From an archaeon (GTDB lineage: Archaea > Iainarchaeota > Iainarchaeia > Iainarchaeales > CSSED10-239), in NCBI GenBank assembly GCA_035400625.1, contig DAOMZT010000003.1:60001-92000 (forward strand): a stretch of 32,000 bases of DNA, in the 5' to 3' direction. The notes under the pieces were generated by a model. The model saw nothing but the letters and a program-made list of their open reading frames with translations. It ran no database searches and was not told the origin of the DNA. The position numbers and the translations under genes are program-made. How positions within the stretch are numbered: the stretch's first letter is position 1; each line of letters opens with the position of its first letter. Below are positions 13,691 to 29,025 of this stretch, piece by piece.

Positions 13691-15145
13691 TTGTTTGATT
13701 TATTAAAAAACAAGTTTAAGAGCTTTACAGATAAGTTATTTGGAAAGGCCAAAGAAAAAGCAGAAGAAGAGCAAGTTGTCGAAACTAAACAAGAAATTGC
13801 TTTGCCACAAGAGCCCCAAATATCAACTCCTGAAGTTGCAGAATCCAAATCTGTTCAAGAGTTAACAAAAGATGCAGATAAGCTTGAGAAAGCCATAGAT
13901 AGTCAGACCACAGAAGATGCGCTTATTCTTGGACAGCCAGAAGTTAAAGTCCCTGAACCTGTTTTAGAAGAGCCAGAGGTTAAGCCAGAGGTTAAGCAAC
14001 CGGTTCTTGAAAAACCAGAAGTTAAGGTTTCAGAACCTGAAGTTAAGTACCCTGCTCCTGAAGTTCCAAAAAAAGATAAGCATTCTATTTTTGATATCTT
14101 TAAGCCAAAGCCTAAAGTTAAGCCAACAGAAGAAGAAATACCACAACCAACTTCTGTTGAGCCAGAACCTGTAGTTTCTGAGATTGAACAACCTACTCCA
14201 AAGCCACTATCTACAGAGCCACAAGAAGATTTGACAGTTAAGAAAACAACAGAAATAAAAAAATCATTTATTACTTCTGTTAAAAGTATTTTTACAAGCA
14301 AAATCACACTTTCAGAAAAAGAGATTTCTGATTTTTTAGAGGAGTTTGAACTCTCGCTTCTTGAGGCGGATGTTTCAATTGTTTCTGCTGAGAATATCTG
14401 TAAAGATCTAAAAGAAAAATTAATTTCTGCAAGCTTTTCAAAAGACAACCCTTTAGAAGACATAAAGCAACACATAAGAGAGTCATTAAAAACGCAATTA
14501 GACATTGATTGCGATATTAATAACTATATAGAAAAAACAAGAAAGCCAGATTTGCCTTTTGTAATAATGTTTATTGGTCCAAATGGAGCAGGCAAGACAA
14601 CTACAATTTCTAAGTTTGCTTATCACTATAAGAAAGAAAACAAATCTGTTGTCTTAGCATCAGGAGACACCTTTAGAGCAGGAAGCATCGACCAACTTGA
14701 AAAACATGCAAATGCAATTGGTGTGAAAATTATTAAGCAAAACTATGGTTCAGACCCTGCTGCTGTTGCCTTTGATGCTGTAACTTCTGCAAAGGCAGGA
14801 AAGATAGACTATGTGTTTATTGATACTGCAGGAAGACAAGAAAACAATATCAACTTGATGCAGGAACTTAAGAAAATAAAAAAAGTAGTTAGCCCTAATC
14901 TAACAATTTATATTGGCGAAGCACAAGCTGGTCAAGCAATTGTTGATCAGGTTTTAGGGTTTGACAAAGAGATAGGTGTTGATGGAGTAATTCTAACAAA
15001 GATTGATACTGACCCTAAAGGTGGAGTTGCAATTTCTATTTTAAACGAACTTAAAAAGCCAATCTTTTTTGTTGGAACCGGCCAGACATATGATGACCTA
15101 GAAGCATTCTCTCCACAATTTATAATAGACAGGGTTGTTGTTTGA
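13691..15145 (+). CDS. ftsY: signal recognition particle receptor FtsY with long acidic/Pro-rich A-domain
   Basis: TTG start gives MFDLLKNKFKSF. NG domain motifs are FIGPNGAGKTTTISK, DTAGR and TKIDTDPKGG. The A-domain carries PEVK-type repeats. Confidence 0.9.
   Translation: MFDLLKNKFKSFTDKLFGKAKEKAEEEQVVETKQEIALPQEPQISTPEVAESKSVQELTKDADKLEKAIDSQTTEDALILGQPEVKVPEPVLEEPEVKPEVKQPVLEKPEVKVSEPEVKYPAPEVPKKDKHSIFDIFKPKPKVKPTEEEIPQPTSVEPEPVVSEIEQPTPKPLSTEPQEDLTVKKTTEIKKSFITSVKSIFTSKITLSEKEISDFLEEFELSLLEADVSIVSAENICKDLKEKLISASFSKDNPLEDIKQHIRESLKTQLDIDCDINNYIEKTRKPDLPFVIMFIGPNGAGKTTTISKFAYHYKKENKSVVLASGDTFRAGSIDQLEKHANAIGVKIIKQNYGSDPAAVAFDAVTSAKAGKIDYVFIDTAGRQENNINLMQELKKIKKVVSPNLTIYIGEAQAGQAIVDQVLGFDKEIGVDGVILTKIDTDPKGGVAISILNELKKPIFFVGTGQTYDDLEAFSPQFIIDRVVV
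15086..15145 (+). repeat. left 60-bp direct repeat (functional 3' end of ftsY: last 19 codons plus TGA)
   Basis: acatatgatgacctagaagcattctctccacaatttataatagacagggttgttgtttga. It is 57/60 identical to 16613-16672. Confidence 0.95.
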
Positions 15146-15177
15146 AGATATATTTAAAAACTATTTGTGTCATCTCT

Positions 15178-15197
15178 ATATAACAATATTGTTATAT
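15178..15197. promoter_or_regulatory. 20-bp perfect palindrome ATATAACAATATTGTTATAT, candidate AbiEi operator/promoter
   Basis: Perfect dyad 43 nt upstream of the abiEi ATG at 15240, inside the only non-coding stretch of the cassette. Confidence 0.45.
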
Positions 15198-15239
15198 TGG
15201 AGTGACTATCTCGTCCAGATATTTATGGGGTTTTCATAG

Positions 15240-15824
15240 ATGAATTTATACGAAATAAAAGAATTAGCTAAAAAGTCAGGAAAAGCAGTGTATTCTACAA
15301 GGCAATTATCTAATCTTATTTCTAAGGATAAACTGTCTACTGCTGTGTATGTGTCTAGACTTATAAAAGGAAAATTTGCAAAAAAATTGCAAAAAGGCAC
15401 GATAAGCTTTACAGATAATGATTTTGTTATTGCCACTCAATTATATGAACCTGCTTATGTTTCTTTGGATTCTGCATTGTTATTTCACAATCTAATAACG
15501 CAAGTTCCAAAAGACATAGATTGTATAACTACAATCAATAGTAAATATTTTAAGTCGCATAATATTTATTATCATAAAATAAGTCCAAAGTTGTTTTTTG
15601 GTTTTAAAAAATATAAATTAGATAATAGCTATGCTTTTATTGCAGAACCAGAGAAAGCCACACTAGATGGGTTATATTATAATAAATATTCCATAGCTGA
15701 TTTAGAAGAATGGTTATCAAAACTTAATTATACAAGATTAAAGAAATATTCAAAACTTTATAATTCAAAAATACAAAATATGATTGAGAATGTTAGAAAA
15801 AGAAGAACTAAAAGAAATAGCTAA
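15240..15824 (+). CDS. abiEi: AbiEi-family antitoxin/transcriptional regulator (type IV TA)
   Basis: 194 aa. N-terminal wHTH-like segment (YSTRQLSNLISKDKLSTAVYVSRLIKGKFAKKLQKGTISF) followed by PAYVSLDSALLFHNLITQVP, the typical AbiEi core. It overlaps the downstream toxin gene. Confidence 0.7.
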   Translation: MNLYEIKELAKKSGKAVYSTRQLSNLISKDKLSTAVYVSRLIKGKFAKKLQKGTISFTDNDFVIATQLYEPAYVSLDSALLFHNLITQVPKDIDCITTINSKYFKSHNIYYHKISPKLFFGFKKYKLDNSYAFIAEPEKATLDGLYYNKYSIADLEEWLSKLNYTRLKKYSKLYNSKIQNMIENVRKRRTKRNS

Positions 15825-16599
15825 ACTAAAAGGTTTAACTTTATATCAACAGGAAAAACATTATGTTCAGTCATCGATATTAAGTATATTGTCAGATTAC
15901 CCTTTAATCTTTAAAGGTGGTACATATCTTTGGTTTTTTCATGGCCTAAACAGGTTTTCAACAGATTTAGATTTCACTTTAGAGATAGATAGATCAACGC
16001 CAAAAACATATTTAGATGTTGATATTTTTTCTAAACATATAACAGATAAAGTTTGTCAATCTCTGTGGCTGTTTCAAGGAATAAAAGCAACAGGAAAAAT
16101 ACAAAACACAACAACAAACAGTTTTTCTTTTAAGATTGCAGCAGAAGGCCCATTATATACTACTCCTAATAGTTTGTGTTATGTTGATGTGGACATAAGT
16201 TTAAGAGAAAAAATAATTAATGTCCCAAAGCCATATAATTTAAATTTTCCAGAATATAATTTTCCAATAAAAATAATAAAAGGGATGGATGTAGAGGAAG
16301 TTTTTGCAGAAAAGATAAGAGCAATAATTACAAGAAAACCAGTAACAAAAAGCGAAAGAGATATTTATGATCTTTGGTTTTTAATGTCAAAATATAATTT
16401 AAAGATAAATAAAGAAACTTTAAAATTAATAAATAAAAAACTTTCCTTTTATAAAATGAAATTTGATAAAAATGTATTTGATAAAAAATTAATTGAAAAA
16501 AAATCTAGTTTTAAGGATCTAAGTAATTTGATTTTTGGAGAATTAAAGGATTTCAATTATTATTATAAATACATACTAAACAATATATATGAAAAATAG
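15784..16599 (+). CDS. abiEii: AbiEii/AbiGii-family nucleotidyltransferase toxin (DUF1814)
   Basis: QQEKHYVQSSIL ... LIFKGGTYLWFFHGLNRFSTDLDFTLE and EKIRAIITR ... ERDIYDLWFL match the AbiEii signature (FKGGTaL ... RfSeDlDf ... RDlYDlw). TTG 15784 or ATG 15790 could be the start. It overlaps abiEi by about 40 nt. Confidence 0.85.
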   Translation: MRMLEKEELKEIAKLKGLTLYQQEKHYVQSSILSILSDYPLIFKGGTYLWFFHGLNRFSTDLDFTLEIDRSTPKTYLDVDIFSKHITDKVCQSLWLFQGIKATGKIQNTTTNSFSFKIAAEGPLYTTPNSLCYVDVDISLREKIINVPKPYNLNFPEYNFPIKIIKGMDVEEVFAEKIRAIITRKPVTKSERDIYDLWFLMSKYNLKINKETLKLINKKLSFYKMKFDKNVFDKKLIEKKSSFKDLSNLIFGELKDFNYYYKYILNNIYEK

Positions 16600-16612
16600 A
16601 CAATTTCTTCAT

Positions 16613-16672
16613 ACATATGATGACCTAGAAGCATTCTCTCCACAATTCATAATCGACAGGGTTGTTGTTTAA
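16613..16672 (+). pseudogene. right 60-bp direct repeat: orphan copy of the last 19 codons plus stop (TAA) of ftsY
   Basis: acatatgatgacctagaagcattctctccacaattcataatcgacagggttgttgtttaa. It translates to the same TYDDLEAFSPQFIIDRVVV* as the real ftsY end. The three differences are all synonymous. Confidence 0.9.
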
Positions 16673-16685
16673 AATAAAAAAAGAA

Positions 16686-16708
16686 AAAGATCTTAATTAA
16701 AGATCTTT
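16686..16708. terminator. hairpin at the 3' end of binding-protein gene 1
   Basis: aaagatct / agatcttt forms an 8-bp stem (9 with t16694-a16700) with a taattaa loop. It spans the stop codon of the minus-strand gene at 16693 and faces the orphan ftsY tail. Confidence 0.3.
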
Positions 16709-17844
16709 ACAAATTTCCCATCTTGTACTTGTTTTAAAATTACTTTTTTTTGAACATCTCCGTTCTTGTCAAAAGAGAATATTCCACTAACGCCTTGATA
16801 GTTTTTTGTATTTTCTAGTTCTGCTTTGACTTTGTCTGTGTTTTCTCCTGCTTTTTCAATAGCTTTTGCAAGAACCATTATTGAATCATAAGAGTTTGCT
16901 GCTGTACTGTCAGGATATTCATTGTATTTTGCTTTATATTTTTCAATAAATGATTGTGCTTGTGAGTTTTTATTTTCTGTATCATAAATGTATGGATAAA
17001 TCACACCATCAGAAACACTTTTGTAATCTGTAATTAATACATTTGTTTCTGCCCCATAGTGAGACAACCATACAACGTTCATACCAAGCTCTTTCCCTTG
17101 CTTAATCATTGCTCCAACTAATGCTGAGAACTGCAAATCAAGAACTGCATCAACATTCTGTGATTTAAGAAAGGATAATTCAGCTCTTGTGTCTGTTGCT
17201 CCAGGAGTTATCTTCTGAGAAACAACAGTTCCTCCAAGTTTTTCAAAGCTTTCTGTAAAGTCATCTAGATGTTCTTGGCTAAATGAGGTTCCAGGAAGTA
17301 TAACTCCGACTTTTCTTAATTTTAAATCATTGTAAGCATAGTTTGCAAGAACTTCCATCATGTCTTTTGTTTTTGGAGCAAGCCTAAACAAGTAATCGTC
17401 TTTACTTACTTGGTCTAGATTAACGTTTGGTGCGACAACTATTACTTTCTTATCGTTTGTCATTTGCATAAAAGAAATTGTTGTGTCATTCCAACAATCT
17501 CCAACAATAAACTTAACTTTGTCTGTATTTACTAACTTATTTACTGCGTTAACTGCTTCTTTTGGAACAGATTGTGAATCTTCGACTATCAGTTCTATTT
17601 TTTTGCCGTTTATGCCACCTTTTGCATTAATTTCTTCAACTGCCAGATTAACTGCTTTTATTTCTTGTTCTCCATGATATGCTCCAACACCTGTTTGTGT
17701 AGCGACAATTCCAATTTTAAGTGTTTCTGTTGGACCACCTAATGAAAGTAATCCTGTGCTACTAGAATTAAATCCAATTATTGCAATTACTAAAATTAGA
17801 ATAACTATTGCAATTGAAACTATTAACCACGTTTTATTTTTCAT
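16693..17844 (-). CDS. ABC transporter substrate-binding protein 1, Leu/Ile/Val-binding (HAAT) family, membrane-anchored
   Basis: LKIGIVATQTGVGAYHGEQEIKAVNLAVEEINAKGGINGKKIELIVEDSQS is the type I periplasmic-binding (LivJ/K-like) N-terminal signature. The N-terminal anchor is WLIVSIAIVILILVIAIIGF. I prefer the ATG at 17844 (MKNKTW), by analogy with the paralogs, over 17862. Confidence 0.85.
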   Translation of the reverse strand: MKNKTWLIVSIAIVILILVIAIIGFNSSSTGLLSLGGPTETLKIGIVATQTGVGAYHGEQEIKAVNLAVEEINAKGGINGKKIELIVEDSQSVPKEAVNAVNKLVNTDKVKFIVGDCWNDTTISFMQMTNDKKVIVVAPNVNLDQVSKDDYLFRLAPKTKDMMEVLANYAYNDLKLRKVGVILPGTSFSQEHLDDFTESFEKLGGTVVSQKITPGATDTRAELSFLKSQNVDAVLDLQFSALVGAMIKQGKELGMNVVWLSHYGAETNVLITDYKSVSDGVIYPYIYDTENKNSQAQSFIEKYKAKYNEYPDSTAANSYDSIMVLAKAIEKAGENTDKVKAELENTKNYQGVSGIFSFDKNGDVQKKVILKQVQDGKFVKIFN

Positions 17845-17981
17845 ATATTTTACCATCTCCATTATTTTTACTTTTTTATGTTAATAAATAACTTATCATT
17901 AAAGGGCGATATAAATATCTATTCTCCAATTTAGGAGGACAAAAACATAGTTATATATAATTAATTATTCCTGTAATATAT

Positions 17982-18713
17982 ATGGATTTACAAGTGTTAG
18001 AGGAGTTAGGCTTTACTTCTGGGGAAATTAAAGTATATGTATCTCTCCTTAAAACAGGCCCATCTCCAGCAGGAAAAATTATTTCTAAGGAGAATCTTCA
18101 AAACTCAGTATTCCATTTTAATATAAATAGATTAATAAACAAAGGGTTTGTTTCTTATACTCAAAAAGGCGGGAAAAAAATATATTTTGCAAAAGATCCT
18201 GAGAATATCTTTAGCTTTATTAAGGAAAAAGAAGCAAGGTTGGTGGGTGTTGTTTCTGATCTAAAAAGCCTACAAAACAAGATATCTGATGAATATGCAA
18301 ATAGTTTTGAAATATTTGTGGGATTTCCAGGAATTACAACTTTCAATAACACAATAATTGCAAATGCAAAGAAAGGAGAAGAATATCTTTTTTATCCGGT
18401 TGATAACCCTCAATTGGAAACAAACAAAGAAATAGTAAAATATTATAAAAAATTTGATATTAGACGAAAAGTAAAGAAAATTCTTGCTAAAGCTATAATT
18501 CCAACATCTCAAAAGAAGTTGTTTTCACAAAGAACTTTCCTTAAAACAAAAGTTACAGATTCAGCAATTCCTTCAAATAAAGTGATTTGCGGAGATTATG
18601 TTGGTTTTATTGATTGGCAAGATGATATTCCAAGAGCGATATTAATTAGATCAAAACAGATTGCTAATGTTGAAAGGAAGTTTTTTAATTACCTTTGGAA
18701 TACAATTAAATAA
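17982..18713 (+). CDS. TrmB-like transcriptional regulator 1
   Basis: The N-terminal wHTH LEELGFTSGEIKVYVSLLKTGPSPAGKIISKENLQNSVFHFNINRLINKGFVSY ... YFAKDPENIF matches the TrmB-family layout. It is divergent from binding-protein gene 1. Confidence 0.7.
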   Translation: MDLQVLEELGFTSGEIKVYVSLLKTGPSPAGKIISKENLQNSVFHFNINRLINKGFVSYTQKGGKKIYFAKDPENIFSFIKEKEARLVGVVSDLKSLQNKISDEYANSFEIFVGFPGITTFNNTIIANAKKGEEYLFYPVDNPQLETNKEIVKYYKKFDIRRKVKKILAKAIIPTSQKKLFSQRTFLKTKVTDSAIPSNKVICGDYVGFIDWQDDIPRAILIRSKQIANVERKFFNYLWNTIK

Positions 18714-18853
18714 TAATAGAGATACAAACAAAGAAAAAACACGTTAAAAATAAAAAATCTAATGTTGAAAGGAAGTTTTTTAATTACCTTTGGAATACAA
18801 TTAAATAATAAAAGAGATATAAACAAAGAAAAAACATGTTAAAAATAAAAAAT
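18664..18853 (+). repeat. 95-bp tandem duplication (2 copies, 92/95 identical) spanning the regulator 3' end, the spacer and the livG start
   Basis: Copy 1 is 18664-18758 and copy 2 is 18759-18853. Mismatches are at 18717/18812, 18725/18820 and 18742/18837. The last changes ACG (copy 1) to the functional livG ATG (copy 2). A 4-nt ctaa follows copy 2. Confidence 0.95.
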
Positions 18854-19573
18854 CTAAATAAAAGTTATGGCGCAATTAAGGCTGCAGACAATTGTAGCTT
18901 TACAATTAAACCAAACAAGATAACAGGATTAATTGGCCCAAATGGAGCAGGAAAATCAACTATATTTAATATTGTCTCTGGCTTTGAGACAGAAGATTCA
19001 GGAACAATAATACTTAACAAAATAGATATTTCAAAATTCCCGCCATATAAGATTGCAAATTCAGGGATATCAAGGGTTTTTCAAAAATCAAAGTTATTTG
19101 AAAATCTTTCAGTTTATGATAATTTATCTATTGCTATTCAAGAGGATAACACTAGTTTTTTCAAAAGCCTTTTTAAAACAAGTAAACTAACAGAAGAGCA
19201 AGAAAAAAGAATTACAGAAATATTAAAGCTTTTAAGAATCTACGATATCAAGGACAAGCAATGTAGAGAACTAAGTTATGGTCAAAAAAGGCTAACAGAA
19301 CTTGCAAGAGCCATAGTTAAAAAGCACAAGTTATTGATGCTTGATGAGCCTGTTGCTGGTGTTCATCCAAGTGTTAGAAACACAATTATGGATATTTTAA
19401 AATTACTAAAGGGAAACGGAGAAACTATTCTTCTAATAGAGCACGATATGTTCTTTACTCTTAAAGTTTGCGATGAGATAATTGTTATGGATGATGGCAA
19501 AGTAATAGCTCAAGGAACACCAAGCCAGATAAAGAACAATAAAAAAGTACTAGAAGCATATCTTGGAGACTGA
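18836..19573 (+). CDS. livG: branched-chain amino acid ABC transporter ATP-binding protein LivG-like
   Basis: Walker A GPNGAGKST, signature LSYGQKRLTELARA, Walker B LLMLDEPVAG and C-terminal LEAYLGD. Confidence 0.85.
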   Translation: MLKIKNLNKSYGAIKAADNCSFTIKPNKITGLIGPNGAGKSTIFNIVSGFETEDSGTIILNKIDISKFPPYKIANSGISRVFQKSKLFENLSVYDNLSIAIQEDNTSFFKSLFKTSKLTEEQEKRITEILKLLRIYDIKDKQCRELSYGQKRLTELARAIVKKHKLLMLDEPVAGVHPSVRNTIMDILKLLKGNGETILLIEHDMFFTLKVCDEIIVMDDGKVIAQGTPSQIKNNKKVLEAYLGD

Positions 19574-19576
19574 AAT

Positions 19577-20287
19577 GTGATAGAAATACAAAATCTTAAT
19601 GCAGGTTATGGAGAAAACCACGTTTTAAAGAACATAACTTTAAGAATAGAAGAGGGAACAATAGTTTCAATAATTGGCCCAAATGGTGCAGGAAAGTCTA
19701 CTCTTTTAAATTCTATATTTAATCTTTGTGATATTTATTCTGGAGACATTATTTTTAATAATAAAAAAATAACCAAAATTGCAACACATAAGCTTATAAG
19801 TGAAGGCATAAATTATTGCCCTCAAAAGAACAGAATTTTTTCAGACATGACTGTTTATGAAAATCTAGAACTTGGCCTTTTTCAATCAAAAGAACCAGAA
19901 AAGAAGAAAAAGGAAAAGATAGAAAAAATGTTAGAGGAATTTCCTGTATTAAAACAAAAAAAAGAGATGCTTGCAAACACACTTTCTGGTGGTCAGCAAC
20001 AAATCCTTGCTATTGCTAGAGCGCTTCTTCGAGACCCAAAGGTTTTATTGCTTGATGAACCATCAATTGGCCTTGACCCAAAAACCATGAAAGATGTCTT
20101 TGGAATTATTAAAGACCTAAACATTAAAAAGAAAATAACAATGCTAATTGTTGAGCAAAATGCAAAGCAATCTGCCGAAATCTCAGATAAGATTTATATT
20201 TTTGAAGACGGTAAGATTGCCTTAGAAGGAACAAAAGAAATCTTAAATGATAAGAAAATAAAAAACATCTACTTTGGTGGAAGATGA
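19577..20287 (+). CDS. livF: branched-chain amino acid ABC transporter ATP-binding protein LivF-like
   Basis: GTG start preceded by GGAGA. Walker A GPNGAGKST, signature LSGGQQQILAIARAL, Walker B LLLDEPSIGL and C-terminal IYFGG. Confidence 0.85.
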   Translation: MIEIQNLNAGYGENHVLKNITLRIEEGTIVSIIGPNGAGKSTLLNSIFNLCDIYSGDIIFNNKKITKIATHKLISEGINYCPQKNRIFSDMTVYENLELGLFQSKEPEKKKKEKIEKMLEEFPVLKQKKEMLANTLSGGQQQILAIARALLRDPKVLLLDEPSIGLDPKTMKDVFGIIKDLNIKKKITMLIVEQNAKQSAEISDKIYIFEDGKIALEGTKEILNDKKIKNIYFGGR

Positions 20288-21079
20288 TTATTCTTTAGCA
20301 ACTTTCCATATTATATCAAAGTAGTCTTCAAATCCTTCTGCTGTATTTTTATTCTTAATAACTATGCCAATCATTGATTCCCAAATAACTATTGCTGTTT
20401 TATCTCCATAAACCCATATTGCAAAAGGCAATTGATATCCTTTTGGCATGAACCTAATTTCAAAGTTGTGATTTTTTTGTATTTTTAGTGGCCTTGATTT
20501 TCGTAAATTAGATGTGTATATAATTTTATAATTTATTTTATTTAGTCTTTTTGTAAATGAATTTACATAAGTAGGATAGTATTTTGAGAATTCCCCATCC
20601 CCACCAAAACACAACATATTTTTATTTTCTGCAATGATATCTTCAAATATGTTTTTTAAACTCAATTTTCCATCAAAGACTATAACCGATTCTTTTGTAG
20701 TTATTATGTTTGAAGAAACAAAACTAGGAAGTAGTTCTTTGTATCTTTTTCTAAATTTTGCAATTGTTTTTTCTTTATTATTTATAAGGTCTATTATTTT
20801 ATTAGGGTTATCAGCATAATAAATTCTATTTTTGTTTTTTAGAATATAACCAATTAGTCCTTTTTCTGTTAGTTCATTTAATATATCATACATATAGCTT
20901 CTATTGATTCCTGTTTTTTTAACAATCTCAGGAAGATATAAAGAACCATATTTTAGAAATACTAGATAGACTATGGCATGATTTTTTCTAAATCCTATTT
21001 CTTCAAAGTAGTTTATTAATTCTTGATCATCTGTAGTTATTTTTTCCAAAAGTGTATTATTTATATTTGTTCTTGTCAT
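20288..21079 (-). CDS. TrmB-like transcriptional regulator 2
   Basis: LINYFEEIGFRKNHAIVYLVFLKYGSLYLPEIVKKTGINRSYMYDILNELTEKGLIGY ... YYADNPNKIIDLI. I prefer the ATG at 21079 (MTRTNIN) over the GTG at 21130 in the ORF track. Its stop abuts the livF stop with no spacer. Confidence 0.7.
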   Translation of the reverse strand: MTRTNINNTLLEKITTDDQELINYFEEIGFRKNHAIVYLVFLKYGSLYLPEIVKKTGINRSYMYDILNELTEKGLIGYILKNKNRIYYADNPNKIIDLINNKEKTIAKFRKRYKELLPSFVSSNIITTKESVIVFDGKLSLKNIFEDIIAENKNMLCFGGDGEFSKYYPTYVNSFTKRLNKINYKIIYTSNLRKSRPLKIQKNHNFEIRFMPKGYQLPFAIWVYGDKTAIVIWESMIGIVIKNKNTAEGFEDYFDIIWKVAKE

Positions 21080-21197
21080 ATATATGTTAAATATAGAAAG
21101 TTTTATATTGTTGTTGCAATAATACAACACAAAAATATAAATATAAAAAACAAGAAATATTTATTAATTAAATAAAATTAAAAAGAGGTAATGTTAT

Positions 21198-22313
21198 ATG
21201 AAAACAAAAAATAAAAATTGGCTTATAGCAATTGTAGCAATAGTTATAATTGCTTTAATATTGGTTATTGCGACTCATGCAACCAAAAAATCAGAACCAC
21301 AAAAAATAAAGGTAGGTTTTATAACTGGAATAACAGGAACAACAAGTTATCTAGGAGTGCCAAATTCTAAAGCTGTATTTTTAGCAGAAAAGAAACTAAA
21401 AGAAATATATGGCGAAGAAGCGGTACAAATAATTGTTGAAGATTCCAAGTCTGATTCAAAAGAAGCAGCAAATGCAGCAAATAAGTTAATCAATGTAGAT
21501 AATGTTGATGCTATATTTGTTGAATTTACAGGTCCATCAGGAGCTGTTGTTCCAATTGCAAAAGACAATGATATAGCTGTACTTTATAGTGCATATACAA
21601 CAGATCCTTTAACAAAATACGAATATTCATTAAAGACCTATAGAAATGCAGAAGCTGAGTGTACAATATATGCAAAAATAGCAAAATCAAAAGGAATAGA
21701 AAAAATCGCAATACTTGATGCTGTTGGTGGAACTATGGGTGTTGATTGTCAAAAAGGGACATTAAACTACTATACACCAGAAAATGTAAAAATAGAAAAC
21801 TTAGCTGGTGTTCAAGATATAAAAACAGCAATACTTAAATTAAGTAATGAAGGATATAATGGGTTATTTTCTTATCTTTATGAAAATGCAACAATTTCAG
21901 TACTTGCTGCAAAATTAGATTATGGTCTAGATAATATGTTTTTCTTCGGGGATGCATCAAATACATATACTGACAAAATAAAAGAAACAATAGGCACAAA
22001 TAATCTAAATGGAACAATAATCAGCACATTAAAATATTCAGATAAATTTACAAATGATTATTATTTAGAATATGGAAATACAGATGGGGTAACAGCAAAT
22101 GCGCCAACAAACTATGATGGAATAATAAAGTTATATTCTGCAGTAAAGAAATGTGGAAAAGAAAACAAAGATTGTATAGTGAATGCTGTGTTAAATGATA
22201 AATTAACAAGTACAGTAATAAACTACGGACCATCAATAGGCAGAGCATTAAATCCACATATAGAATACCACATTATTGAAAATGGAGAGCCAGTTCTTTT
22301 GAATATTGAGTAA
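21198..22313 (+). CDS. ABC transporter substrate-binding protein 2 (divergent HAAT-family paralog), membrane-anchored
   Basis: N-terminal anchor WLIAIVAIVIIALILVIA. IKVGFITGITGTTSYLGVPNSKAVFLAEKKL ... IIVEDSKSDSKEAANAANKLI. It lacks the EINAKGGI motif of paralogs 1 and 3. GAGGT lies upstream. Confidence 0.75.
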   Translation: MKTKNKNWLIAIVAIVIIALILVIATHATKKSEPQKIKVGFITGITGTTSYLGVPNSKAVFLAEKKLKEIYGEEAVQIIVEDSKSDSKEAANAANKLINVDNVDAIFVEFTGPSGAVVPIAKDNDIAVLYSAYTTDPLTKYEYSLKTYRNAEAECTIYAKIAKSKGIEKIAILDAVGGTMGVDCQKGTLNYYTPENVKIENLAGVQDIKTAILKLSNEGYNGLFSYLYENATISVLAAKLDYGLDNMFFFGDASNTYTDKIKETIGTNNLNGTIISTLKYSDKFTNDYYLEYGNTDGVTANAPTNYDGIIKLYSAVKKCGKENKDCIVNAVLNDKLTSTVINYGPSIGRALNPHIEYHIIENGEPVLLNIE

Positions 22314-22336
22314 AAGATATCTTTATAGATATCTTT
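22313..22336. terminator. perfect 10-bp-stem hairpin between convergent binding-protein gene 2 and regulator 3
   Basis: aaagatatct (22313-22322) pairs with agatatcttt (22327-22336), with loop ttat. A T-rich stretch follows. Confidence 0.4.
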
Positions 22337-22338
22337 CT

Positions 22339-23100
22339 TTATTCTTTAGCAATCTTCCATATCACATCAAAGTAGTCTTCAAAGCCTTTTGCTGCACTTT
22401 GACTTTTTATAACTATTCCTATCTGTGATTTCCAAATTATAATTGATATTTTATCTGCATATATGTGCATTGCAAAAGAATATGTATAATCTTTAGGCAT
22501 GTATTTTATTTCTGTAACTCCTTTATGTACAGCAAGTGGTCCTCGTTTACGAAGTGCTTCTGAAAATATTAATTGATATTTTATTTTATTCTTCTTGCAT
22601 CTTAGATTGAAAGTGGTTACAAAATCTTTATAGAAATCTGCAGGAAATCCTTCTCCAGCAAAGCATTTGAAATCTTTTCCTGTTTTTATAATGTCATCAT
22701 ATATATTTTTTATCCCTTTCTTTCCCTCATAAGAAAATATTTCATCTTTTTCTGTTTGGCTACTAATTGACACCAAGGTTGGTAATATCTTTGTGTAATC
22801 TTCTTTTAAAATTTTAATTTCTTCTTCTCTTTTATTTATTAATTTAAGAAGTTTTTCTGGGTCATCTGCAAAAAACACTTTTGTGTTGTTTTTAGTATAG
22901 TTTCCAACAAGTCCTTTTTCTATTAGTTCATCTAAGATGTCATAAATATAGCTTCTAGATATTCCTGTTTTTTTTACAAGGTCTGAAATGCCAAGATGGC
23001 CAAATTTAAGTAGTGAGAAATACACCTTTGAATGGTTTTTCTTTATATCTATATTCTCCAATTTTTTTAAATCCAATAATGGTAGAGTTTGCGAGTTCAT
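22339..23100 (-). CDS. TrmB-like transcriptional regulator 3 (close paralog of regulator 2)
   Basis: NHSKVYFSLLKFGHLGISDLVKKTGISRSYIYDILDELIEKGLVGN ... FFADDPEKLLKLI. The C-terminus GIVIKSQSAAKGFEDYFDVIWKIAKE is nearly identical to that of regulator 2. Confidence 0.7.
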   Translation of the reverse strand: MNSQTLPLLDLKKLENIDIKKNHSKVYFSLLKFGHLGISDLVKKTGISRSYIYDILDELIEKGLVGNYTKNNTKVFFADDPEKLLKLINKREEEIKILKEDYTKILPTLVSISSQTEKDEIFSYEGKKGIKNIYDDIIKTGKDFKCFAGEGFPADFYKDFVTTFNLRCKKNKIKYQLIFSEALRKRGPLAVHKGVTEIKYMPKDYTYSFAMHIYADKISIIIWKSQIGIVIKSQSAAKGFEDYFDVIWKIAKE

Positions 23101-23130
23101 AAATATGATATGTATGGTAACTTTTATAAA

Positions 23131-23149
23131 GTCGTAATATTTTTACGAC
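23131..23149. promoter_or_regulatory. 7-bp inverted repeat GTCGTAA-N5-TTACGAC in the regulator 3 / binding-protein 3 divergent control region
   Basis: Perfect dyad 31-49 nt upstream of the regulator 3 start at 23100. Confidence 0.3.
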
Positions 23150-23202
23150 ACACATATAACTAATTCTAAAACAATACATATTTAGTAACTAAAACAAATG
23201 AA

Positions 23203-23225
23203 CTCGTGAACAGTGGCAACACGAG
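23203..23225 (+). promoter_or_regulatory. relatively GC-rich hairpin in the putative 5' leader of binding-protein gene 3
   Basis: CTCGTG (23203-23208) pairs with CACGAG (23220-23225) around an 11-nt loop. It lies 45 nt upstream of the ATG at 23270 in otherwise very AT-rich DNA. Confidence 0.3.
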
Positions 23226-23269
23226 GGATGCAAAAAAACAAATTGCCACAAATAAAGGGGGTAAAAAAT

Positions 23270-24445
23270 ATGAAAAAAATTAATTCAAAAAAAATTATAT
23301 TTTCAGCTTTCGTTGTTTTAATTGTTTTGATAGTAGGAGTATTAGTTTTTACAAACTTAAGTAATAAAGAAAAGAATATACAAACAGATGTGTCTCCAAT
23401 AACAGGTGATATAGTTCTTACAAATCCAAGTAATGAAGAAACCATAGAAATAGGTGCAATTTTGCCATTAACAGGAACCACAGCATTTGCAGGAGAGGCA
23501 TTAAAGAATGGTGCTCTATTGGCAGTTGATGAGATAAATGCAAAAGGCGGAATAGATGGCAAAATGGTTAAATTGATTATAGAAGATAGTAAAAGTGCTC
23601 CTGCAGAAGGAGTAAATGCTTTCAATAATCTTGAACTAAAAAAACCAGATGTAGTAATATCTGCAATGGCTTCAGTCTCAGCAGCAGTAATACCAATAGC
23701 AAACACAACAGAAACTCCAATAATAGCAACTGTTGCAACATCTCCACAATTAATAACAGACTACGACAACGCTTATAGATATTTCCCAACAGCAAAGCAA
23801 GAGATCCCTCCAATCATAGAGATAGCAAATGAAAAGGGTATCAAGAAGATGGGCATTATATATTTAAATGATGAATTCGGAGCAGCAATGTTTAGCACAT
23901 TAACAGAAGAATTCGATGGAGAGGTAATTGGAGAGCCTTTTTTAATTTCAAATACAGATTACAGTACTTCAATACTTAAATTAAAAGAAGCAAAAGTAGA
24001 TGGAATATTAGTTGTTGGTTTTAGTTCACACATCTCAAAATGTATTCAACAAATAAAAGAGTATAATTTGGATGTTGTAATCTTTGCACCATCAACCTCT
24101 GCATTTCCAGACATAAGGAACACATTAGGTTCTGAAGAGATATATGCAGGCATTCCAAGTTTCTACAACACAGAATCATCAAACCCAGCAACAAAATTTA
24201 AAGAAGACTACAAAGCAAAATACGGTAAAGATGCAGACCATTATGCAGCAACAGGATATGATACAGTTATGTTAATTAAAAAAGCAATAGAGGAAGGTTC
24301 AGCAAACAGAGAAGGAATAATCAACGGCTTAAATAAAATAAAGGTTTATTCAGGAATCTTTGGGGATGTAACCAAAGATGGCAGAGAATTTGGGTTTAAT
24401 CTTTACCCCGCAGAAGTATCTAAAGAAAAAATTTCTTTTGAATGA
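23270..24445 (+). CDS. ABC transporter substrate-binding protein 3, Leu/Ile/Val-binding (HAAT) family, membrane-anchored
   Basis: The ATG at 23270 is preceded by GGGGGT. Anchor IIFSAFVVLIVLIVGVLVF. IEIGAILPLTGTTAFAGEALKNGALLAVDEINAKGGIDGKMVKLIIEDSKS. Confidence 0.85.
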   Translation: MKKINSKKIIFSAFVVLIVLIVGVLVFTNLSNKEKNIQTDVSPITGDIVLTNPSNEETIEIGAILPLTGTTAFAGEALKNGALLAVDEINAKGGIDGKMVKLIIEDSKSAPAEGVNAFNNLELKKPDVVISAMASVSAAVIPIANTTETPIIATVATSPQLITDYDNAYRYFPTAKQEIPPIIEIANEKGIKKMGIIYLNDEFGAAMFSTLTEEFDGEVIGEPFLISNTDYSTSILKLKEAKVDGILVVGFSSHISKCIQQIKEYNLDVVIFAPSTSAFPDIRNTLGSEEIYAGIPSFYNTESSNPATKFKEDYKAKYGKDADHYAATGYDTVMLIKKAIEEGSANREGIINGLNKIKVYSGIFGDVTKDGREFGFNLYPAEVSKEKISFE

Positions 24446-24480
24446 TTTCAGTAATTGAAATCATTCTTTTTTTCTTTTTT
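24443..24480 (+). terminator. hairpin plus long T-run between binding-protein gene 3 and livH (terminator/attenuator)
   Basis: tgatttca (24443-24450) pairs with tgaaatca (24456-24463), with loop gtaat. It is followed by ttctttttttctttttt. The stem starts at the TGA stop codon. Confidence 0.5.
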
Positions 24481-24552
24481 CTAATTGCTTTCCAATTACT
24501 TTATATATCTTTTTCTAAATATATATTTATTAATATAAATTAGGAAAAAAAG

Positions 24553-25425
24553 ATGTTTCTACAATTGCTAATAAATGGTCTGATTGCTGGTGCTATCTAT
24601 GCGTTAGTGGCTTGTGGTTTTTCTTTAATATATTCCACAAACAAGTTTGTCCATTTTGCTCATGGTGCAATTATTGTTGCTTCTGGCTATCTTCTTTTTA
24701 CTTTTTTTAATGTTATTGGAATTAATTTTTATCTTTCTATTTTTCTAACAATTATTGGTGGAGGCTTGCTTGGTTATCTTTCTAATCTTTTGATTTATGA
24801 GAGACTAAGAGAAAAGAAGGCTTCTGCATCAATTCTTCTTATTGCTAGTATTGCTTTATTAATCTTAATTGAATCCTTGATATTGATGATCTTTGGAGCA
24901 GACCTAAAAATAATATTGCCTTTTAGATATAATTCAATTTCTTTCTTGGGTGCAGTAATAACTCCCTTGCAAATAGCAATCATAGTTTCTTCTTTGGTTT
25001 TGTTTGCTCTTTTGTTTTTGCTTATGAAGAAAACAGAACTTGGTAAAAAACTAAGGGCTGTTTCAGAGTCAGGCACACTTGTTGAGATGCTTGGTATTTC
25101 TTCAAAGAAGTTATTTACATATAGTTTTGTTATTGGTTCAGCTCTTGGAGCAATAGCAGGTATCTTTGTTGCCTTAGAATATAATCTAGAGCCGACAATG
25201 GGTAGCAATCTTATGGTAAAAGGTTTTACTGGTGCGATAGTTGGGGGAATCACTTCTGTTCCAGGTTCAATCTTGGGTTCTTTTCTTTTAGGCACAATTG
25301 AAAACTTTGGGGTTTGGTTTTTACCAAGTGGTTATAAAGATGCTATTGCCTTTATGCTATTGTTTGCATTTTTGTTATTTAGACCAAGCGGGATATTAGG
25401 TAAAAAAGCGAGTTGGAAAAAATGA
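24553..25425 (+). CDS. livH: branched-chain amino acid ABC transporter permease LivH-like
   Basis: 290 aa and polytopic. The N-terminus MFLQLLINGLIAGAIYALVACGFSLIY is typical of LivH. Confidence 0.85.
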   Translation: MFLQLLINGLIAGAIYALVACGFSLIYSTNKFVHFAHGAIIVASGYLLFTFFNVIGINFYLSIFLTIIGGGLLGYLSNLLIYERLREKKASASILLIASIALLILIESLILMIFGADLKIILPFRYNSISFLGAVITPLQIAIIVSSLVLFALLFLLMKKTELGKKLRAVSESGTLVEMLGISSKKLFTYSFVIGSALGAIAGIFVALEYNLEPTMGSNLMVKGFTGAIVGGITSVPGSILGSFLLGTIENFGVWFLPSGYKDAIAFMLLFAFLLFRPSGILGKKASWKK

Positions 25426-26376: not shown

Positions 26377-26574
26377 ATGAACAAAAAATTAAAAATAATA
26401 TTTTCAATATATTTAATAGTTGCTTTTGCAGTAGGTTTAGTTGTAATCTCTAATTTTTCAGAAACAGAAGATAAATCAGAAATAGCAGATGCGACATTAT
26501 TGTCTAATTCAAAAATACCAGGAACAGTATTTAAAACACGTGGTAGTCTAATTAGAATAATAATGCTAAAATAA
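26377..26574 (+). CDS. small membrane-anchored hypothetical protein (65 aa)
   Basis: MNKKLKIIFSIYLIVAFAVGLVVISNF forms a signal/anchor. No homology recognised. Confidence 0.35.
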   Translation: MNKKLKIIFSIYLIVAFAVGLVVISNFSETEDKSEIADATLLSNSKIPGTVFKTRGSLIRIIMLK

Positions 26575-28932: not shown

Positions 28933-29025
28933 ATGTATAAGATAACTAGTGAAACCAAAATATCTATATTTAAGTGCTATAAAGCACTAAAAACACATAA
29001 AAACTATGCTTTTACTACCAAATAG
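28933..29025 (+). pseudogene. decayed duplicate of the tgt 5' end (30-codon ORF MYKITSETK...)
   Basis: 28933-28960 (atgtataagataactagtgaaaccaaaa) matches the real tgt start at 29120-29147 (atgtttaagataactagtgaaaccaaaa) at 27/28 positions. Similarity fades after that, and the ORF stops after 30 codons. Confidence 0.6.

What the first reader, a model, noticed from the sequence alone, without database searches (positions are those of the whole stretch)
15086..16672. Integrase-less AbiE cassette inside the conserved r-protein/aIF6/prefoldin/ftsY cluster, bracketed by 60-bp repeats that are the ftsY 3' end and differ only synonymously
Seen: 15086-15145 (last 19 codons plus stop of ftsY) recurs at 16613-16672 with 57/60 identity. 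The differences are 15121 T vs 16648 C (TTT/TTC Phe), 15127 A vs 16654 C (ATA/ATC Ile) and 15144 G vs 16671 A (TGA/TAA stop). Both copies therefore encode TYDDLEAFSPQFIIDRVVV*. The 1467 bp between them holds only a palindromic operator-like site and overlapping AbiEi-like and AbiEii-like genes, with no recombinase and no terminal inverted repeats. Established: elements that integrate into the 3' end of a gene carry their own copy of that end, so the target is reconstituted and the displaced end is left at the far junction. AbiE is a type IV TA / abortive-infection module. Inference: this is a minimal defence cassette, or the last remnant of a larger element, that uses the ftsY tail as its attachment or homology site. 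Purely synonymous divergence suggests the incoming copy evolved as coding sequence in another lineage. I do not know of ftsY as an integration target, or of a TA pair as the sole cargo of such an insertion.
Basis: partly seen in the sequence, partly recalled or inferred. Interest (0 to 1): 0.8.

Follow-up and report, generated by a model that had tools for sequence, protein, structure and literature searches.

The report
Displaced ftsY tail beside AbiE cassette
An intact AbiE toxin-antitoxin defence operon sits directly after the essential ftsY gene of a DPANN archaeon and is followed by a dead 60-base copy of the ftsY end, which is a real recombination scar at a cargo-swapping hot spot and not evidence that the cassette moves by itself.

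Summary
15086-15145 recurs at 16613-16672 with 57/60 identity, or 60/64 over 15083-15146 and 16610-16673. The three differences are synonymous. The 1467 bp between the copies holds only a palindromic operator and overlapping AbiEi and AbiEii genes.

The arrangement is in at least 9 independent assemblies, so it is not a misassembly. The host is an Iainarchaeia (DPANN) archaeon. In relatives the ftsY-SRP54 gap is a variable hot spot of 0.26-5.3 kb.

All conspecific strains carry AbiE plus the pseudo-tail, and no empty site was found. Copy 2 of this window is identical to the functional ftsY tail of other strains. In other strains copy 2 decays through non-synonymous changes and a frameshift. 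The synonymous-only pattern therefore reflects selection on copy 1.

A sister species keeps the AbiE promoter/operator after ftsY without AbiE genes or a repeat, so AbiE predates the duplication.

A mirror scar lies 12 kb away: a 28-nt copy of the TGT start beside a Fic remnant.

No recombinase was found. A co-occurring head-tailed virus recently captured a 172-bp host block (ftsY tail plus AbiE operator).

Best reading: homology-anchored recombination left a displaced gene end. An integrase-mediated remnant is the main rival.

The parts
13691..15145 (+). ftsY (SRP receptor), intact, 484 aa
   Evidence: TIGR00064 at 6.2e-88, 294.7 bits against a cut-off of 260.7; Pfam SRP54 and SRP54_N.
15083..15146 (+). 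Repeat copy 1: the functional ftsY 3' end (last 19-20 codons plus stop)
   Evidence: Among strains it changes almost only synonymously, 5 synonymous to 1 non-synonymous.
15033..15204 (+). 172-bp block (last 113 nt of ftsY plus 59 nt of AbiE promoter/operator) that is also carried, 100% identical, inside a head-tailed virus genome
   Evidence: L078 2093-2264 equals window 15033-15204 at 100%. Related viruses L082-L086 lack the block. Contigs from five assemblies break inside it.
15146..15168 (+). A/T-rich TATA-like stretch (AGATATATTTAAAAAC) upstream of the operator; inferred abiE promoter
   Evidence: Read directly from the sequence. Partly conserved in the sister species L077. Promoter function is an inference.
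15169..15206 (.). Extended dyad/hairpin with a perfect 20-nt palindromic core at 15178-15197 (ATATAACAATATTGTTATAT); putative AbiEi operator and recombination-prone site
   Evidence: Self-complementary hit. DNA fold of -7.6 kcal/mol, z = -5.2. The same 31-nt unit, 97% identical, lies 10 nt from another AbiEi gene that is 52% identical (L080). Three independent breakpoints fall at 15204-15207.
15240..15824 (+). abiEi (antitoxin/autorepressor), 194 aa, intact
   Evidence: PADLOC AbiEi at 5.9e-26 covering residues 7-189. NCBIfam TAA_AbiEi scores only 22.6 bits, below the cut-off of 150. No Pfam hit. Protein identity of 99.5-100% in 5 strains.
15784..16599 (+). abiEii (DUF1814 nucleotidyltransferase toxin), 269-271 aa, intact, overlapping abiEi
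   Evidence: PF08843 at 5.6e-23; PADLOC at 8.6e-53. It keeps every invariant column of a 23-sequence alignment, including G43, D59, D61, K175, R177, R190, D191 and D194. Protein identity of 99.3-99.6% in 5 strains.
16600..16609 (.). Junction spacer between the abiEii stop and the pseudo-tail; site of the non-homologous join
   Evidence: Similarity to ftsY starts abruptly at 16610, with only a 2-nt CA match before a mismatch.
16610..16673 (+). Repeat copy 2: displaced, non-coding ftsY 3' end (pseudo-tail)
   Evidence: It is 60/60 identical to the functional tail of L070, L072, L073 and L076. In L069 it carries a 1-nt deletion, and in L074 and L075 it carries Y>H, Q>H, D>N and Y>C changes.
16693..26294 (.). 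About 9.6-kb island: Liv-type ABC transporter (3 binding proteins, 2 ATPases, 2 permeases) with 3 TrmB regulators. Found only in this species and variable among its strains.
   Evidence: Pfam. Absent from the fetched loci of all 17 related species, L003-L019, and from sister species L077 (gene table). Gene content differs in L069 and L074.
26377..26574 (+). Conserved 65-aa membrane ORF that follows the ftsY stop directly in the closest insertion-free relatives
   Evidence: tblastn hits in L074, L077, L003 and L004; alignment A2.
26646..28061 (+). SRP54, the conserved right-hand neighbour that defines the ftsY-SRP54 hot spot
   Evidence: Pfam SRP54, SRP_SPB and SRP54_N; synteny in L003-L019.
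28933..28960 (+). Pseudo-head: 27/28 copy of the first 28 nt of the TGT gene. This is the mirror-image scar at the right end of block 16610-28960.
   Evidence: 0 expected by chance. Window 28897-28960 aligns with the Fic-less A24-TGT junction of L003.
28961..29119 (+). Remnant of a Fic/Doc-family cassette: promoter, first codons and last ~20 codons
   Evidence: tblastn of the L077 Fic protein (PF02661) hits window 29051-29110 at 90% over its last 20 residues. Fic is intact at this site in L077 and L004.
29120..30220 (+). TGT (archaeosine/queuine tRNA-ribosyltransferase), functional copy
   Evidence: PF01702 at 1.5e-131.

Best explanation
The cargo is an intact abiEi-abiEii operon, a type IV toxin-antitoxin / abortive-infection module. 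Its inferred promoter overlaps a palindromic AbiEi operator.

It lies in a narrow insertion hot spot between the ftsY stop codon and the promoter of the next conserved gene.

The 60-64-nt repeat is a displaced ftsY 3' end. It marks the point where two alternative cargo versions of this hot spot were joined. One version had ftsY followed by AbiE, which is the older state shared with the sister species. The other had ftsY followed by the ABC-transporter island.

The join was made by recombination anchored in homologous core genes, with a non-homologous join at the other end. This could be homology-facilitated illegitimate recombination (HFIR), also described as terminal displacement, or equivalently a Campbell-type single crossover on the ftsY tail. 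No cassette-encoded recombinase was involved.

The ftsY reading frame stayed intact, and the redundant tail (copy 2) was left behind and is decaying. A matching scar (a TGT 5' head copy beside a Fic remnant) marks the other end of the same 12.35-kb block (16610-28960).

Shown: the anatomy, the family assignments, the population and sister-species states, and the neutral decay of copy 2. Inferred: the direction and enzymology of the recombination, and the idea that toxin-antitoxin addiction favoured recombinants that kept AbiE.
For: - The repeat is real and the cargo is confirmed.
- The ftsY-SRP54 gap ranges from 258 to 5269 nt in 13 related species with different cargo. The closest insertion-free relatives (L003, L004) put the small-ORF promoter right after the stop codon.
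- Every strain with 98-100% identical FtsY, and every sufficiently long contig carrying the identical binding protein, has AbiE plus the pseudo-tail.
- Copy 2 equals a functional conspecific allele. Since the duplication, copy 1 has changed 5 synonymous to 1 non-synonymous, while copy 2 has changed 1 synonymous to 4 non-synonymous plus a frameshift.
- L077 has 59 nt of the AbiE promoter/operator directly after its ftsY stop at 83% identity. This matches the 83.6% divergence across 5.6 kb of flank. It has no AbiE genes and no tail repeat. Copy 2 differs from the L077 tail at about 10 of 60 positions.
- The ABC island is absent from all other species.
- The mirror scar at TGT/Fic is collinear with the pseudo-tail.
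- No recombinase, terminal inverted repeats or tRNA lie at the borders.
- Published precedent for displaced gene ends made by homology-anchored illegitimate recombination: PMC5361080, PMC3240628.
Against: - Neither parental haplotype was found. No contig shows ftsY followed directly by the island, or AbiE followed directly by the small ORF.
- The junction shows at most 2 nt of microhomology.
- The cassette borders are very tight: stop+1 on the left and 10-13 nt after the abiEii stop on the right. That is also what a site-specific event would give.
- A virus that carries the ftsY tail exists, and one MAG contig (L063) joins it to the host at this locus.
- The TGT-head scar could not be checked in other strains.
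- Gene conversion between the copies could make the duplication look younger than it is.
Confidence: 0.55

Rival explanations
1. This is a remnant of a site-specifically integrated element, either a provirus or a plasmid. The element's attP would have carried the ftsY 3' end, and an integrase would have recombined it with ftsY, as e14 does with icd. Later deletions would have removed everything except AbiE, which toxin-antitoxin addiction protects from loss.
For: - Direct repeats made of a gene's 3' end bracketing foreign DNA are the classic signature of this mechanism (e14/icd/icdC, PMC13626634).
- The borders are tight.
- The cargo is a toxin-antitoxin pair.
- A head-tailed virus (terminase phrog_2 at 9e-17; portal PF04860) carries 172 bp identical to 15033-15204.
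- MAG contig L063 runs from that virus into host AbiEi at 15033.
- Five assemblies break inside this block.
Against: - No integrase was found in the cassette, in the window, or in about 11 kb of virus on either side of the block.
- Related viruses join the same two arms directly without the block. The left junction lies in a 9-nt microhomology (TTTCTATTT). The block matches the most derived host allele. The block is therefore a recent capture and not an old attP.
- The AbiE promoter/operator is orthologous in a sister species that has no repeat.
- A second scar of the same type affects a different gene, TGT.
- No tail repeats flank the cargo in 16 other loci.
Confidence: 0.25
2. The abiE unit is itself a small mobile cassette. 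It would be moved in trans by a recombinase encoded elsewhere, or by recurrent homologous recombination, and it would use the ftsY tail as its site.
For: The unit is compact at 1467 bp, is flanked by direct repeats and carries its own promoter/operator. The same operator unit occurs next to a different AbiEi in an unrelated contig, L080.
Against: - No empty site and no second location were found.
- The closest AbiEii elsewhere is only 59% identical.
- The cassette diverges in step with its flanks, at 98.7-99.1% against 97.5-99.4%.
- Copy 2 decays, including a frameshift, so it is not maintained as a site.
- The sister species lost the AbiE genes by a deletion that starts at the hairpin foot, not by precise excision.
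Confidence: 0.07
3. The structure arose from a local tandem duplication of the segment 15083-16609, followed by replacement of the second AbiE copy by the ABC island.
For: Tandem duplications across gene ends do occur in this genome. One is the polymorphic 95-nt duplication at 18664-18853. Another is the 23-nt duplication of the ftsY end in L007.
Against: This needs a second deletion or replacement that starts exactly at the stop codon of copy 2. It does not explain the collinear TGT-head scar 12 kb away. No trace of a second promoter/operator or AbiE copy is present.
Confidence: 0.06
4. The repeat is an assembly artefact.
For: Contigs often break near 15033-15181.
Against: Both copies are spanned in single contigs in at least 9 assemblies from different projects and assemblers, with independent substitutions in each copy. 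The breaks map to the virus-shared 172-bp block and not to the 60-nt repeat, whose longest exact run is 35 nt.
Confidence: 0.01

Closest known systems
AbiE type IV toxin-antitoxin / abortive-infection system (Streptococcus agalactiae and Lactococcus AbiEi-AbiEii; PMC3985639, PMC7319586)
   Same: A two-gene operon with the antitoxin first and the genes overlapping. The toxin is a DUF1814 nucleotidyltransferase with its conserved motif residues. AbiEi is about 190 aa. A dyad-symmetric site overlaps the inferred promoter, matching AbiEi autoregulation through inverted repeats.
   Different: The host is a DPANN archaeon and the promoter context is archaeal. AbiEi has no Pfam hit and scores far below the NCBIfam equivalog cut-off. 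There is one long palindrome instead of two separated 23-bp repeats. Toxicity and phage defence have not been tested.
e14 (and phage 21) integration into the 3' end of icd in E. coli, which leaves the icdC pseudogene (PMC13626634, citing Hill et al. 1989)
   Same: The insert follows an essential protein-coding gene. The gene end next to the insert is functional, and a displaced end lies at the far junction. The two copies differ mostly synonymously.
   Different: e14 encodes its own integrase and excisionase and can excise. Here there is no recombinase, no excision evidence and only 1.5 kb of cargo, and the displaced end is decaying.
Terminal (C-terminal) displacement at Rhs/CDI/T6SS effector-immunity loci by homology-facilitated illegitimate recombination (PMC5361080; PMC3240628)
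   Same: A conserved gene acts as the homologous anchor. The new module sits next to the functional gene, and the older gene end and older cargo are pushed downstream. The cargo consists of toxin-type modules whose loss would be costly.
   Different: Here the anchor genes are housekeeping genes (ftsY and TGT) and not toxin genes. The displaced piece is only 28-64 nt. The organism is an archaeon in which DNA uptake and HFIR have not been demonstrated.
Genomic islands stacked at tRNA/tmRNA genes
   Same: There is a hot spot next to a conserved gene, partial copies of the gene end are repeated, and cargo turns over among relatives.
   Different: No tRNA lies at the site; the nearest tRNAs are at 7837-10637. 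No integrase or integrase remnants were found.

Membership tests
AbiE type IV TA system | Toxin belongs to the DUF1814/AbiEii nucleotidyltransferase family | tested here: met
   PF08843 at 82.5 bits against a cut-off of 22.5, E = 5.6e-23. PADLOC AbiEii at 8.6e-53 over residues 3-266. All invariant alignment columns are retained. There was no NCBIfam hit.
AbiE type IV TA system | Antitoxin belongs to the AbiEi family (N-terminal winged helix plus C-terminal antitoxicity domain) | tested here: inconclusive
   PADLOC AbiEi at 5.9e-26 over residues 7-189, and 19 further AbiEi models also hit. NCBIfam TAA_AbiEi scores 22.6 bits against a cut-off of 150, and Pfam gives no hit. The domain structure was not modelled.
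AbiE type IV TA system | Bicistronic operon, antitoxin upstream, genes adjacent or overlapping | tested here: met
   abiEi at 15240-15824 and abiEii at 15784/15790-16599, same strand, 35-41 nt overlap. The same arrangement is present in all strains.
AbiE type IV TA system | Inverted-repeat operator in the promoter, bound by AbiEi | tested here: inconclusive
   A 20-nt perfect palindrome lies 43 nt upstream of abiEi. A 97% identical 31-nt unit lies next to a second AbiEi that is 52% identical. Binding was not tested.
AbiE type IV TA system | Toxin arrests growth, antitoxin neutralises it without direct binding, and the system aborts virus infection | not testable with these tools
   This needs expression and infection assays.
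Site-specific integrative element (prophage or island of the e14/icd type) | Direct repeats (attL/attR) made of the target gene's 3' end | tested here: met
   60/64 repeat at 15083-15146 and 16610-16673.
Site-specific integrative element (prophage or island of the e14/icd type) | An integrase (tyrosine or serine recombinase), or its remnant, inside the element | tested here: not met
   The 1467 bp holds only abiEi and abiEii. No recombinase domain was found in the scanned window ORFs or in about 11 kb of the associated virus.
Site-specific integrative element (prophage or island of the e14/icd type) | Empty-site alleles or excised circular form in the population | tested here: not met
   Look-ups of five FtsY alleles and of the adjacent binding protein returned 20 contigs for the binding protein and 17 for the five FtsY alleles. 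Wherever a contig extends far enough, the site is filled. Raw reads were not available.
Site-specific integrative element (prophage or island of the e14/icd type) | A free element carrying a matching attP | tested here: inconclusive
   Virus L078 carries 15033-15204 at 100% identity. Its relatives lack the block, and the left junction is a 9-nt microhomology, so it is a recent capture.
Terminal displacement / homology-facilitated illegitimate recombination | A displaced end of the anchor gene lies distal to the module that abuts the functional gene | tested here: met
   ftsY pseudo-tail at 16610-16673. A TGT pseudo-head at 28933-28960 has the same logic in mirror image.
Terminal displacement / homology-facilitated illegitimate recombination | The non-anchor junction lacks extended homology | tested here: met
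   Similarity stops abruptly at 16610 (a CA dinucleotide only) and at 28960/28961.
Terminal displacement / homology-facilitated illegitimate recombination | Donor and recipient haplotypes exist | tested here: not met
   Only the merged form was found in this species. The sister species L077 and the relatives L003 and L004 show the component states separately, but no relative carries the ABC island.
Transposon / IS / casposon | Terminal inverted repeats, a short target-site duplication and a transposase or Cas1 | tested here: not met
   There are no inverted repeats at the cassette ends and no such gene. The repeat of 60 nt or more is a gene end and not a short target-site duplication.

The most novel reading that the evidence does not exclude
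The co-occurring head-tailed virus of this DPANN archaeon may have captured the host block (ftsY tail plus AbiE promoter/operator) because the block is useful to it. It could serve as a homology arm for integrase-free, Campbell-type lysogeny beside ftsY; contig L063 would then be the integrated form, flanked by 172-bp repeats. Alternatively it could act as an operator decoy that interferes with AbiEi/AbiE defence, comparable to phages that capture the ToxI antitoxin. On this reading the AbiE pseudo-tail is the fossil of an earlier event of the same kind. Toxin-antitoxin addiction, together with a break-prone operator palindrome, would drive cargo turnover at the ends of housekeeping genes in these reduced genomes.
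Probability: 0.2. Interest if true: 0.7.

Novelty: new member of a known kind. Interest (0 to 1): 0.42.

Why it matters
The locus gives a dated, population-level example of how defence and toxin cassettes (AbiE, Fic, RelA/SpoT-like, PIN) are swapped at the ends of essential genes in very small DPANN genomes, apparently without dedicated recombinases. It also shows how a synonymous-only repeat can arise from selection on one copy alone.

A 172-bp identical block links an uncultivated head-tailed virus to an Iainarchaeia host. Few host assignments exist for DPANN viruses. The link also suggests a testable interaction between the virus and the AbiE operator.

The cassette itself is an ordinary AbiE module. 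The displaced gene end has clear precedents in e14/icd and in Rhs/T6SS displacement.

Tried and rejected
1. Third, older ftsY-tail remnant left of the small-ORF promoter (window 26295-26324, and the equivalent in L077). Local alignment against three ftsY tails was no better than shuffles, p = 0.3-1.0. Rejected. Only the promoter itself aligns with L003 and L004.

2. The 172-bp viral block as an ancient attP. I held this view after and then rejected it. Related viruses L082-L086 lack the block, the left junction is a microhomology, the block matches the most derived host allele, and the shorter block in L079 is a secondary 205-bp deletion.

3. ftsY-tail repeats flanking other cargo in relatives. 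None was found in 17 loci, apart from a 23-nt tandem duplication in L007.

4. Attempts to extend the virus or find an integrase. IMG/VR searches with the ATPase and the terminase found nothing. IMG/VR pattern scans for the tail and for the operator gave 0 hits. tblastn of the terminase against INPHARED gave no match.

5. The single metagenome scan, run with the operator pattern, returned only one host contig and the unrelated AbiEi contig L080. It was not spent on the empty-site pattern. The empty-site question was addressed through exact-protein look-ups instead.

6. AbiEii relatives in IMG/VR are only 23-33% identical, which says nothing about this cassette's source.

7. Literature searches found no report of ftsY as an attachment site. 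The nearest is a phage attachment site in ffs, the SRP RNA gene (PMC12540744).

8. The resemblance of 15146-15161 to the small-ORF promoter (AGATAT.TTTAAAAA) is low-complexity A/T-rich similarity. I do not claim it as homology.

Full report
OBSERVATION

15086-15145 and 16613-16672 match at 57 of 60 positions, and no second match occurred in 100 dinucleotide-preserving shuffles of the window. Ungapped extension gives 15083-15146 against 16610-16673 at 60/64.

The three differences inside the 60-mer fall on two third-codon positions and on the middle base of the stop codon in the ftsY frame. Both copies therefore encode TYDDLEAFSPQFIIDRVVV*. Only 22.8% of all possible single-base changes in this 60-mer are silent, so three silent changes out of three has a chance probability of about 0.012.

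The 1467 bp between the copies contains three things:
- a perfect 20-nt palindrome at 15178-15197;
- a 194-aa ORF at 15240-15824;
- an overlapping 269-271-aa ORF at 15784/15790-16599.

There are no terminal inverted repeats.

GENE IDENTITIES

- The upstream gene is ftsY (TIGR00064, 294.7 bits against a cut-off of 260.7).
- The second cargo ORF is an AbiEii/DUF1814 nucleotidyltransferase (PF08843, 82.5 bits against a cut-off of 22.5; PADLOC 8.6e-53). It keeps every invariant column of an alignment with 22 homologues.
- The first cargo ORF matches 20 PADLOC AbiEi models, the best at 5.9e-26 over nearly its full length. It has no Pfam hit and scores far below the NCBIfam equivalog cut-off.

The family calls therefore hold. 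The AbiEi call is somewhat weaker than the AbiEii call.

CONTEXT

Record titles of the closest genome hits place the organism among Iainarchaeia/Diapherotrites, which are DPANN archaea.

In 17 related species the gene order is Rpr2, S19e, L39e-like, L31e, aIF6, prefoldin, ftsY, a variable gap, SRP54, A24 peptidase, TGT. The gap ranges from 258 to 5269 nt and holds different cargo in different lineages. The closest insertion-free relatives (L003, L004) have only a ~70-aa membrane ORF there, and in L003 and L004 its promoter starts right after the ftsY stop.

In this window SRP54 lies at 26646-28061, so the gap is 11.5 kb. It contains:
- the AbiE unit;
- the pseudo-tail;
- a 9.6-kb Liv-type ABC transporter/TrmB island at 16693-26294, which no relative has;
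- the conserved small ORF at 26377-26574.

The sister species L077 (FtsY GTPase domain 94% identical) has a RelA/SpoT-domain protein in the gap, as do L005 and L018. The interval is a cargo hot spot enriched in toxin-like genes.

POPULATION EVIDENCE

Exact-protein look-ups for five FtsY alleles (98-100% identical) and for the binding protein next to the pseudo-tail returned 20 contigs for the binding protein and 17 for the five FtsY alleles. Wherever a contig extends far enough, AbiE and both repeat copies are present.

Both copies are spanned in at least 9 independent assemblies. This rules out misassembly. It also means that no empty site was seen.

The AbiE proteins are intact and 99.3-100% identical in five strains. 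The cassette is 98.7-99.1% identical at the DNA level, against 97.5-99.4% for its flanks. It has been inherited vertically since before the strains split.

Comparison of the repeat copies among strains is decisive for the synonymous-only argument:
- Copy 2 of this window is 60/60 identical to the functional ftsY tail of strains L070, L072, L073 and L076.
- Taking that sequence as the state at duplication, copy 1 has since accumulated 5 synonymous and 1 non-synonymous changes across strains.
- Over the same period copy 2 has accumulated 1 synonymous change, 4 non-synonymous changes and a 1-nt deletion.

Copy 2 is a neutral relic. The silent-only difference in this window arises because all three changes happened in the copy that is still translated.

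TIMING

In L077 the ftsY stop is followed by 59 nt that are 83% identical to window 15149-15207. This stretch covers the A/T-rich box and the palindrome, which is preserved through a paired change (ACATAACAAAATTGTTATGT). After it the sequence is unrelated, and there are no AbiE genes and no tail repeat.

That identity equals the 83.6% measured across 5.6 kb of flanking genes. The AbiE promoter/operator was therefore already next to ftsY in the common ancestor of the two species.

Copy 2, in contrast, carries the window-species allele. It differs from the L077 tail at about 10 of 60 positions but from conspecific tails at 0-4 positions.

The duplication is much younger than AbiE's residence here. 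It coincides with the appearance of the ABC island.

A MIRROR SCAR

Twelve kilobases downstream, 28933-28960 is a 27/28 copy of the first 28 nt of TGT (29120-29147), with none expected by chance.

It is preceded by sequence homologous to the Fic-less A24-TGT junction of L003. It is followed by the promoter, first codons and last ~20 codons of a Fic gene that is intact at this position in L077 and L004.

The block 16610-28960 therefore starts with a partial ftsY tail and ends with a partial TGT head. In between it is collinear with a haplotype that lacks both AbiE and Fic and carries the ABC island. It is embedded between AbiE and the Fic remnant of an L077-like haplotype.

Two histories would produce this structure:
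- a single import of one donor fragment with non-homologous joins at both ends;
- two one-sided, homology-anchored events.

The data cannot say which parent contributed the rest of the chromosome.

THE VIRUS

One MAG contig (L063) is identical to the window from 15033 rightwards. To the left of 15033 it continues into 4.8 kb of small ORFs with 24% G+C.

The same DNA occurs in contig L078, where window 15033-15204 (113 nt of ftsY plus 59 nt of AbiE promoter/operator) is embedded, 100% identical, between viral arms. On one side of the block lie a small acidic protein, a HIRAN/nuclease-like protein and an AAA ATPase. On the other side lie an origin-like array of A/T palindromes and GGCGCACTAT repeats, a large terminase subunit and a portal protein.

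I first read this block as an attP. Several findings argue against that:
- Related viruses (L082-L086, whose small acidic protein next to the block is 79-86% identical) join the same two arms directly without the block.
- The left junction sits in a 9-nt microhomology (TTTCTATTT).
- The block matches the most derived host allele (TTT/ATA/TGA).
- The shorter version in L079 is a secondary deletion that fuses a viral ORF to the last nine ftsY codons.
- No integrase was seen in about 11 kb of virus.

The block is therefore a recent capture of host DNA.

Contigs from five assemblies end inside 15033-15204, as expected when virus and host share a 172-bp exact repeat in the same samples. L063 may be a provirus integrated by homologous recombination, or it may be an assembly chimera. 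Reads are needed to decide.

THE PALINDROME

The same 31-nt unit (CTAYATAACAATATTGTTATATTGGAGTGAC, 97% identical) lies 10 nt from the start of a different AbiEi gene (52% identical) in an unrelated contig. This supports the view that it is the AbiEi operator, in line with published AbiEi autoregulation through inverted repeats (PMC3985639, PMC7319586).

It is part of a longer dyad at 15169-15206 that folds as a DNA hairpin (-7.6 kcal/mol, z = -5.2). Three independent rearrangement breakpoints fall within 4 nt of its right foot:
- the end of the viral block at 15204;
- the end of similarity to L080 at 15206;
- the start of the AbiE deletion in L077 at 15207.

This suggests that the operator also acts as a fragile site. 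That is an inference.

MECHANISM

The best-supported account runs as follows. AbiE is a resident, functional-looking, autoregulated toxin-antitoxin / abortive-infection module in a very narrow permissive slot after ftsY. The pseudo-tail is the displaced ftsY end left when DNA from two cargo haplotypes was joined by recombination anchored in conserved genes, with a non-homologous join at the other end.

This is the logic described for the displaced 3' ends of Rhs, CDI and T6SS effector loci and for homology-facilitated illegitimate recombination (PMC5361080, PMC3240628). A Campbell-type single crossover of a circular DNA carrying a piece of the ftsY tail would give the same product. If L063 is real, the virus shows that such molecules exist.

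Recombinants that would have deleted AbiE by ordinary replacement may have been counter-selected by toxin-antitoxin addiction. This is my inference and was not tested.

The main rival is a decayed integrase-dependent element of the e14/icd type (PMC13626634). It fits the anatomy. It is weakened by the lack of any integrase, by the derived nature of the viral block, by the orthologous operator in a sister species without a repeat, and by the second scar at a different gene.

NOVELTY

The cassette is a new archaeal member of the AbiE family. The displaced gene end is a known kind of scar in a new setting.

I found no report of ftsY as an attachment site or recombination anchor.

The most unusual element is the virus that captured the ftsY tail together with the AbiE operator. 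This gives a direct virus-host link for an Iainarchaeia lineage and a testable idea about integrase-free integration or operator decoys.

Overall interest is moderate.

Noticed in passing
window 28928-29119: A 27/28 copy of the TGT start codon region lies upstream of a gutted Fic/Doc cassette (promoter, first codons and last ~20 codons remain). Fic is intact at this site in L077 and L004 and absent in L003, L019 and L005.
   Followed up: yes
window 18664-18853: A 95-nt tandem duplication (97% identical) covers the last 50 nt of a TrmB regulator gene, the intergenic region and the first 18 nt of the ABC ATPase gene. The first copy has ACG where the second has the ATG start. The duplication is absent in strains L065, L074, L075 and L076, so it is polymorphic.
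   Followed up: partly
window 30462-31183: A PIN_2-domain gene (138 aa, PF10130) and an overlapping upstream 102-aa ORF with no Pfam hit look like a third toxin-antitoxin pair. They lie between TGT and RadC, which are directly adjacent in L019.
   Followed up: partly
L078 2093-2950 (virus contig ERZ795061 NODE_10597); L079 1201-1350: The head-tailed virus carries the host block beside an origin-like region. That region has about 20-nt periodic A/T palindromes, one of which (ATATTACAATATTGTAATAT) shares the ACAATATTGT core of the AbiE operator, and five GGCGCACTAT repeats. In L079 a 205-bp deletion fuses a viral acidic protein in frame to the last nine ftsY codons (...EEFIIDRVVV*).
   Followed up: partly
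L063 (GCA_029563035.1, JAKQTP010000212.1, contig end), reverse complement 1-4986: This contig runs from the virus into the host exactly at window position 15033 and continues into AbiEi. It is either a provirus junction or an assembly chimera through the 172-bp shared block.
   Followed up: partly
L007 4996-5041: A more distant relative (80% FtsY) has a 23-nt tandem duplication of the very end of ftsY including the stop (TGACAGGGTTGTTGCCTGAAG twice), with no cargo between the copies. It may be the footprint of a lost insertion, or simple replication slippage.
   Followed up: no
L077 10782-12142; L005 4802-5887; L018 880-1272: A 361-aa RelA/SpoT-domain protein (PF04607) occupies the ftsY-SRP54 hot spot in three other species. 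This could be a toxic small alarmone synthetase, but that was not tested. In L077 it is preceded by three TTCTGCGCTTTTTGA repeats.
   Followed up: partly
window 15204-15207, with L078, L080 and L077: Three independent rearrangement breakpoints fall within 4 nt of the right foot of the operator hairpin. This suggests palindrome-stimulated breakage.
   Followed up: partly
window 16693-26294, compared with L069 and L074: The ABC-transporter/TrmB island varies among strains. L069 has an extra methyltransferase plus a further TrmB and binding-protein unit. L074 has one fewer TrmB and binding-protein unit. L076 has the first binding-protein gene split in two. Two TrmB paralogues share 174 nt of 3' end at 76% identity (20288-20461 and 22339-22512).
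   Followed up: no
window 13926-14125: The N-terminal acidic domain of FtsY contains degenerate PEVK-like nucleotide repeats. Its length varies strongly among relatives, from 430 to 549 aa in total.
   Followed up: no
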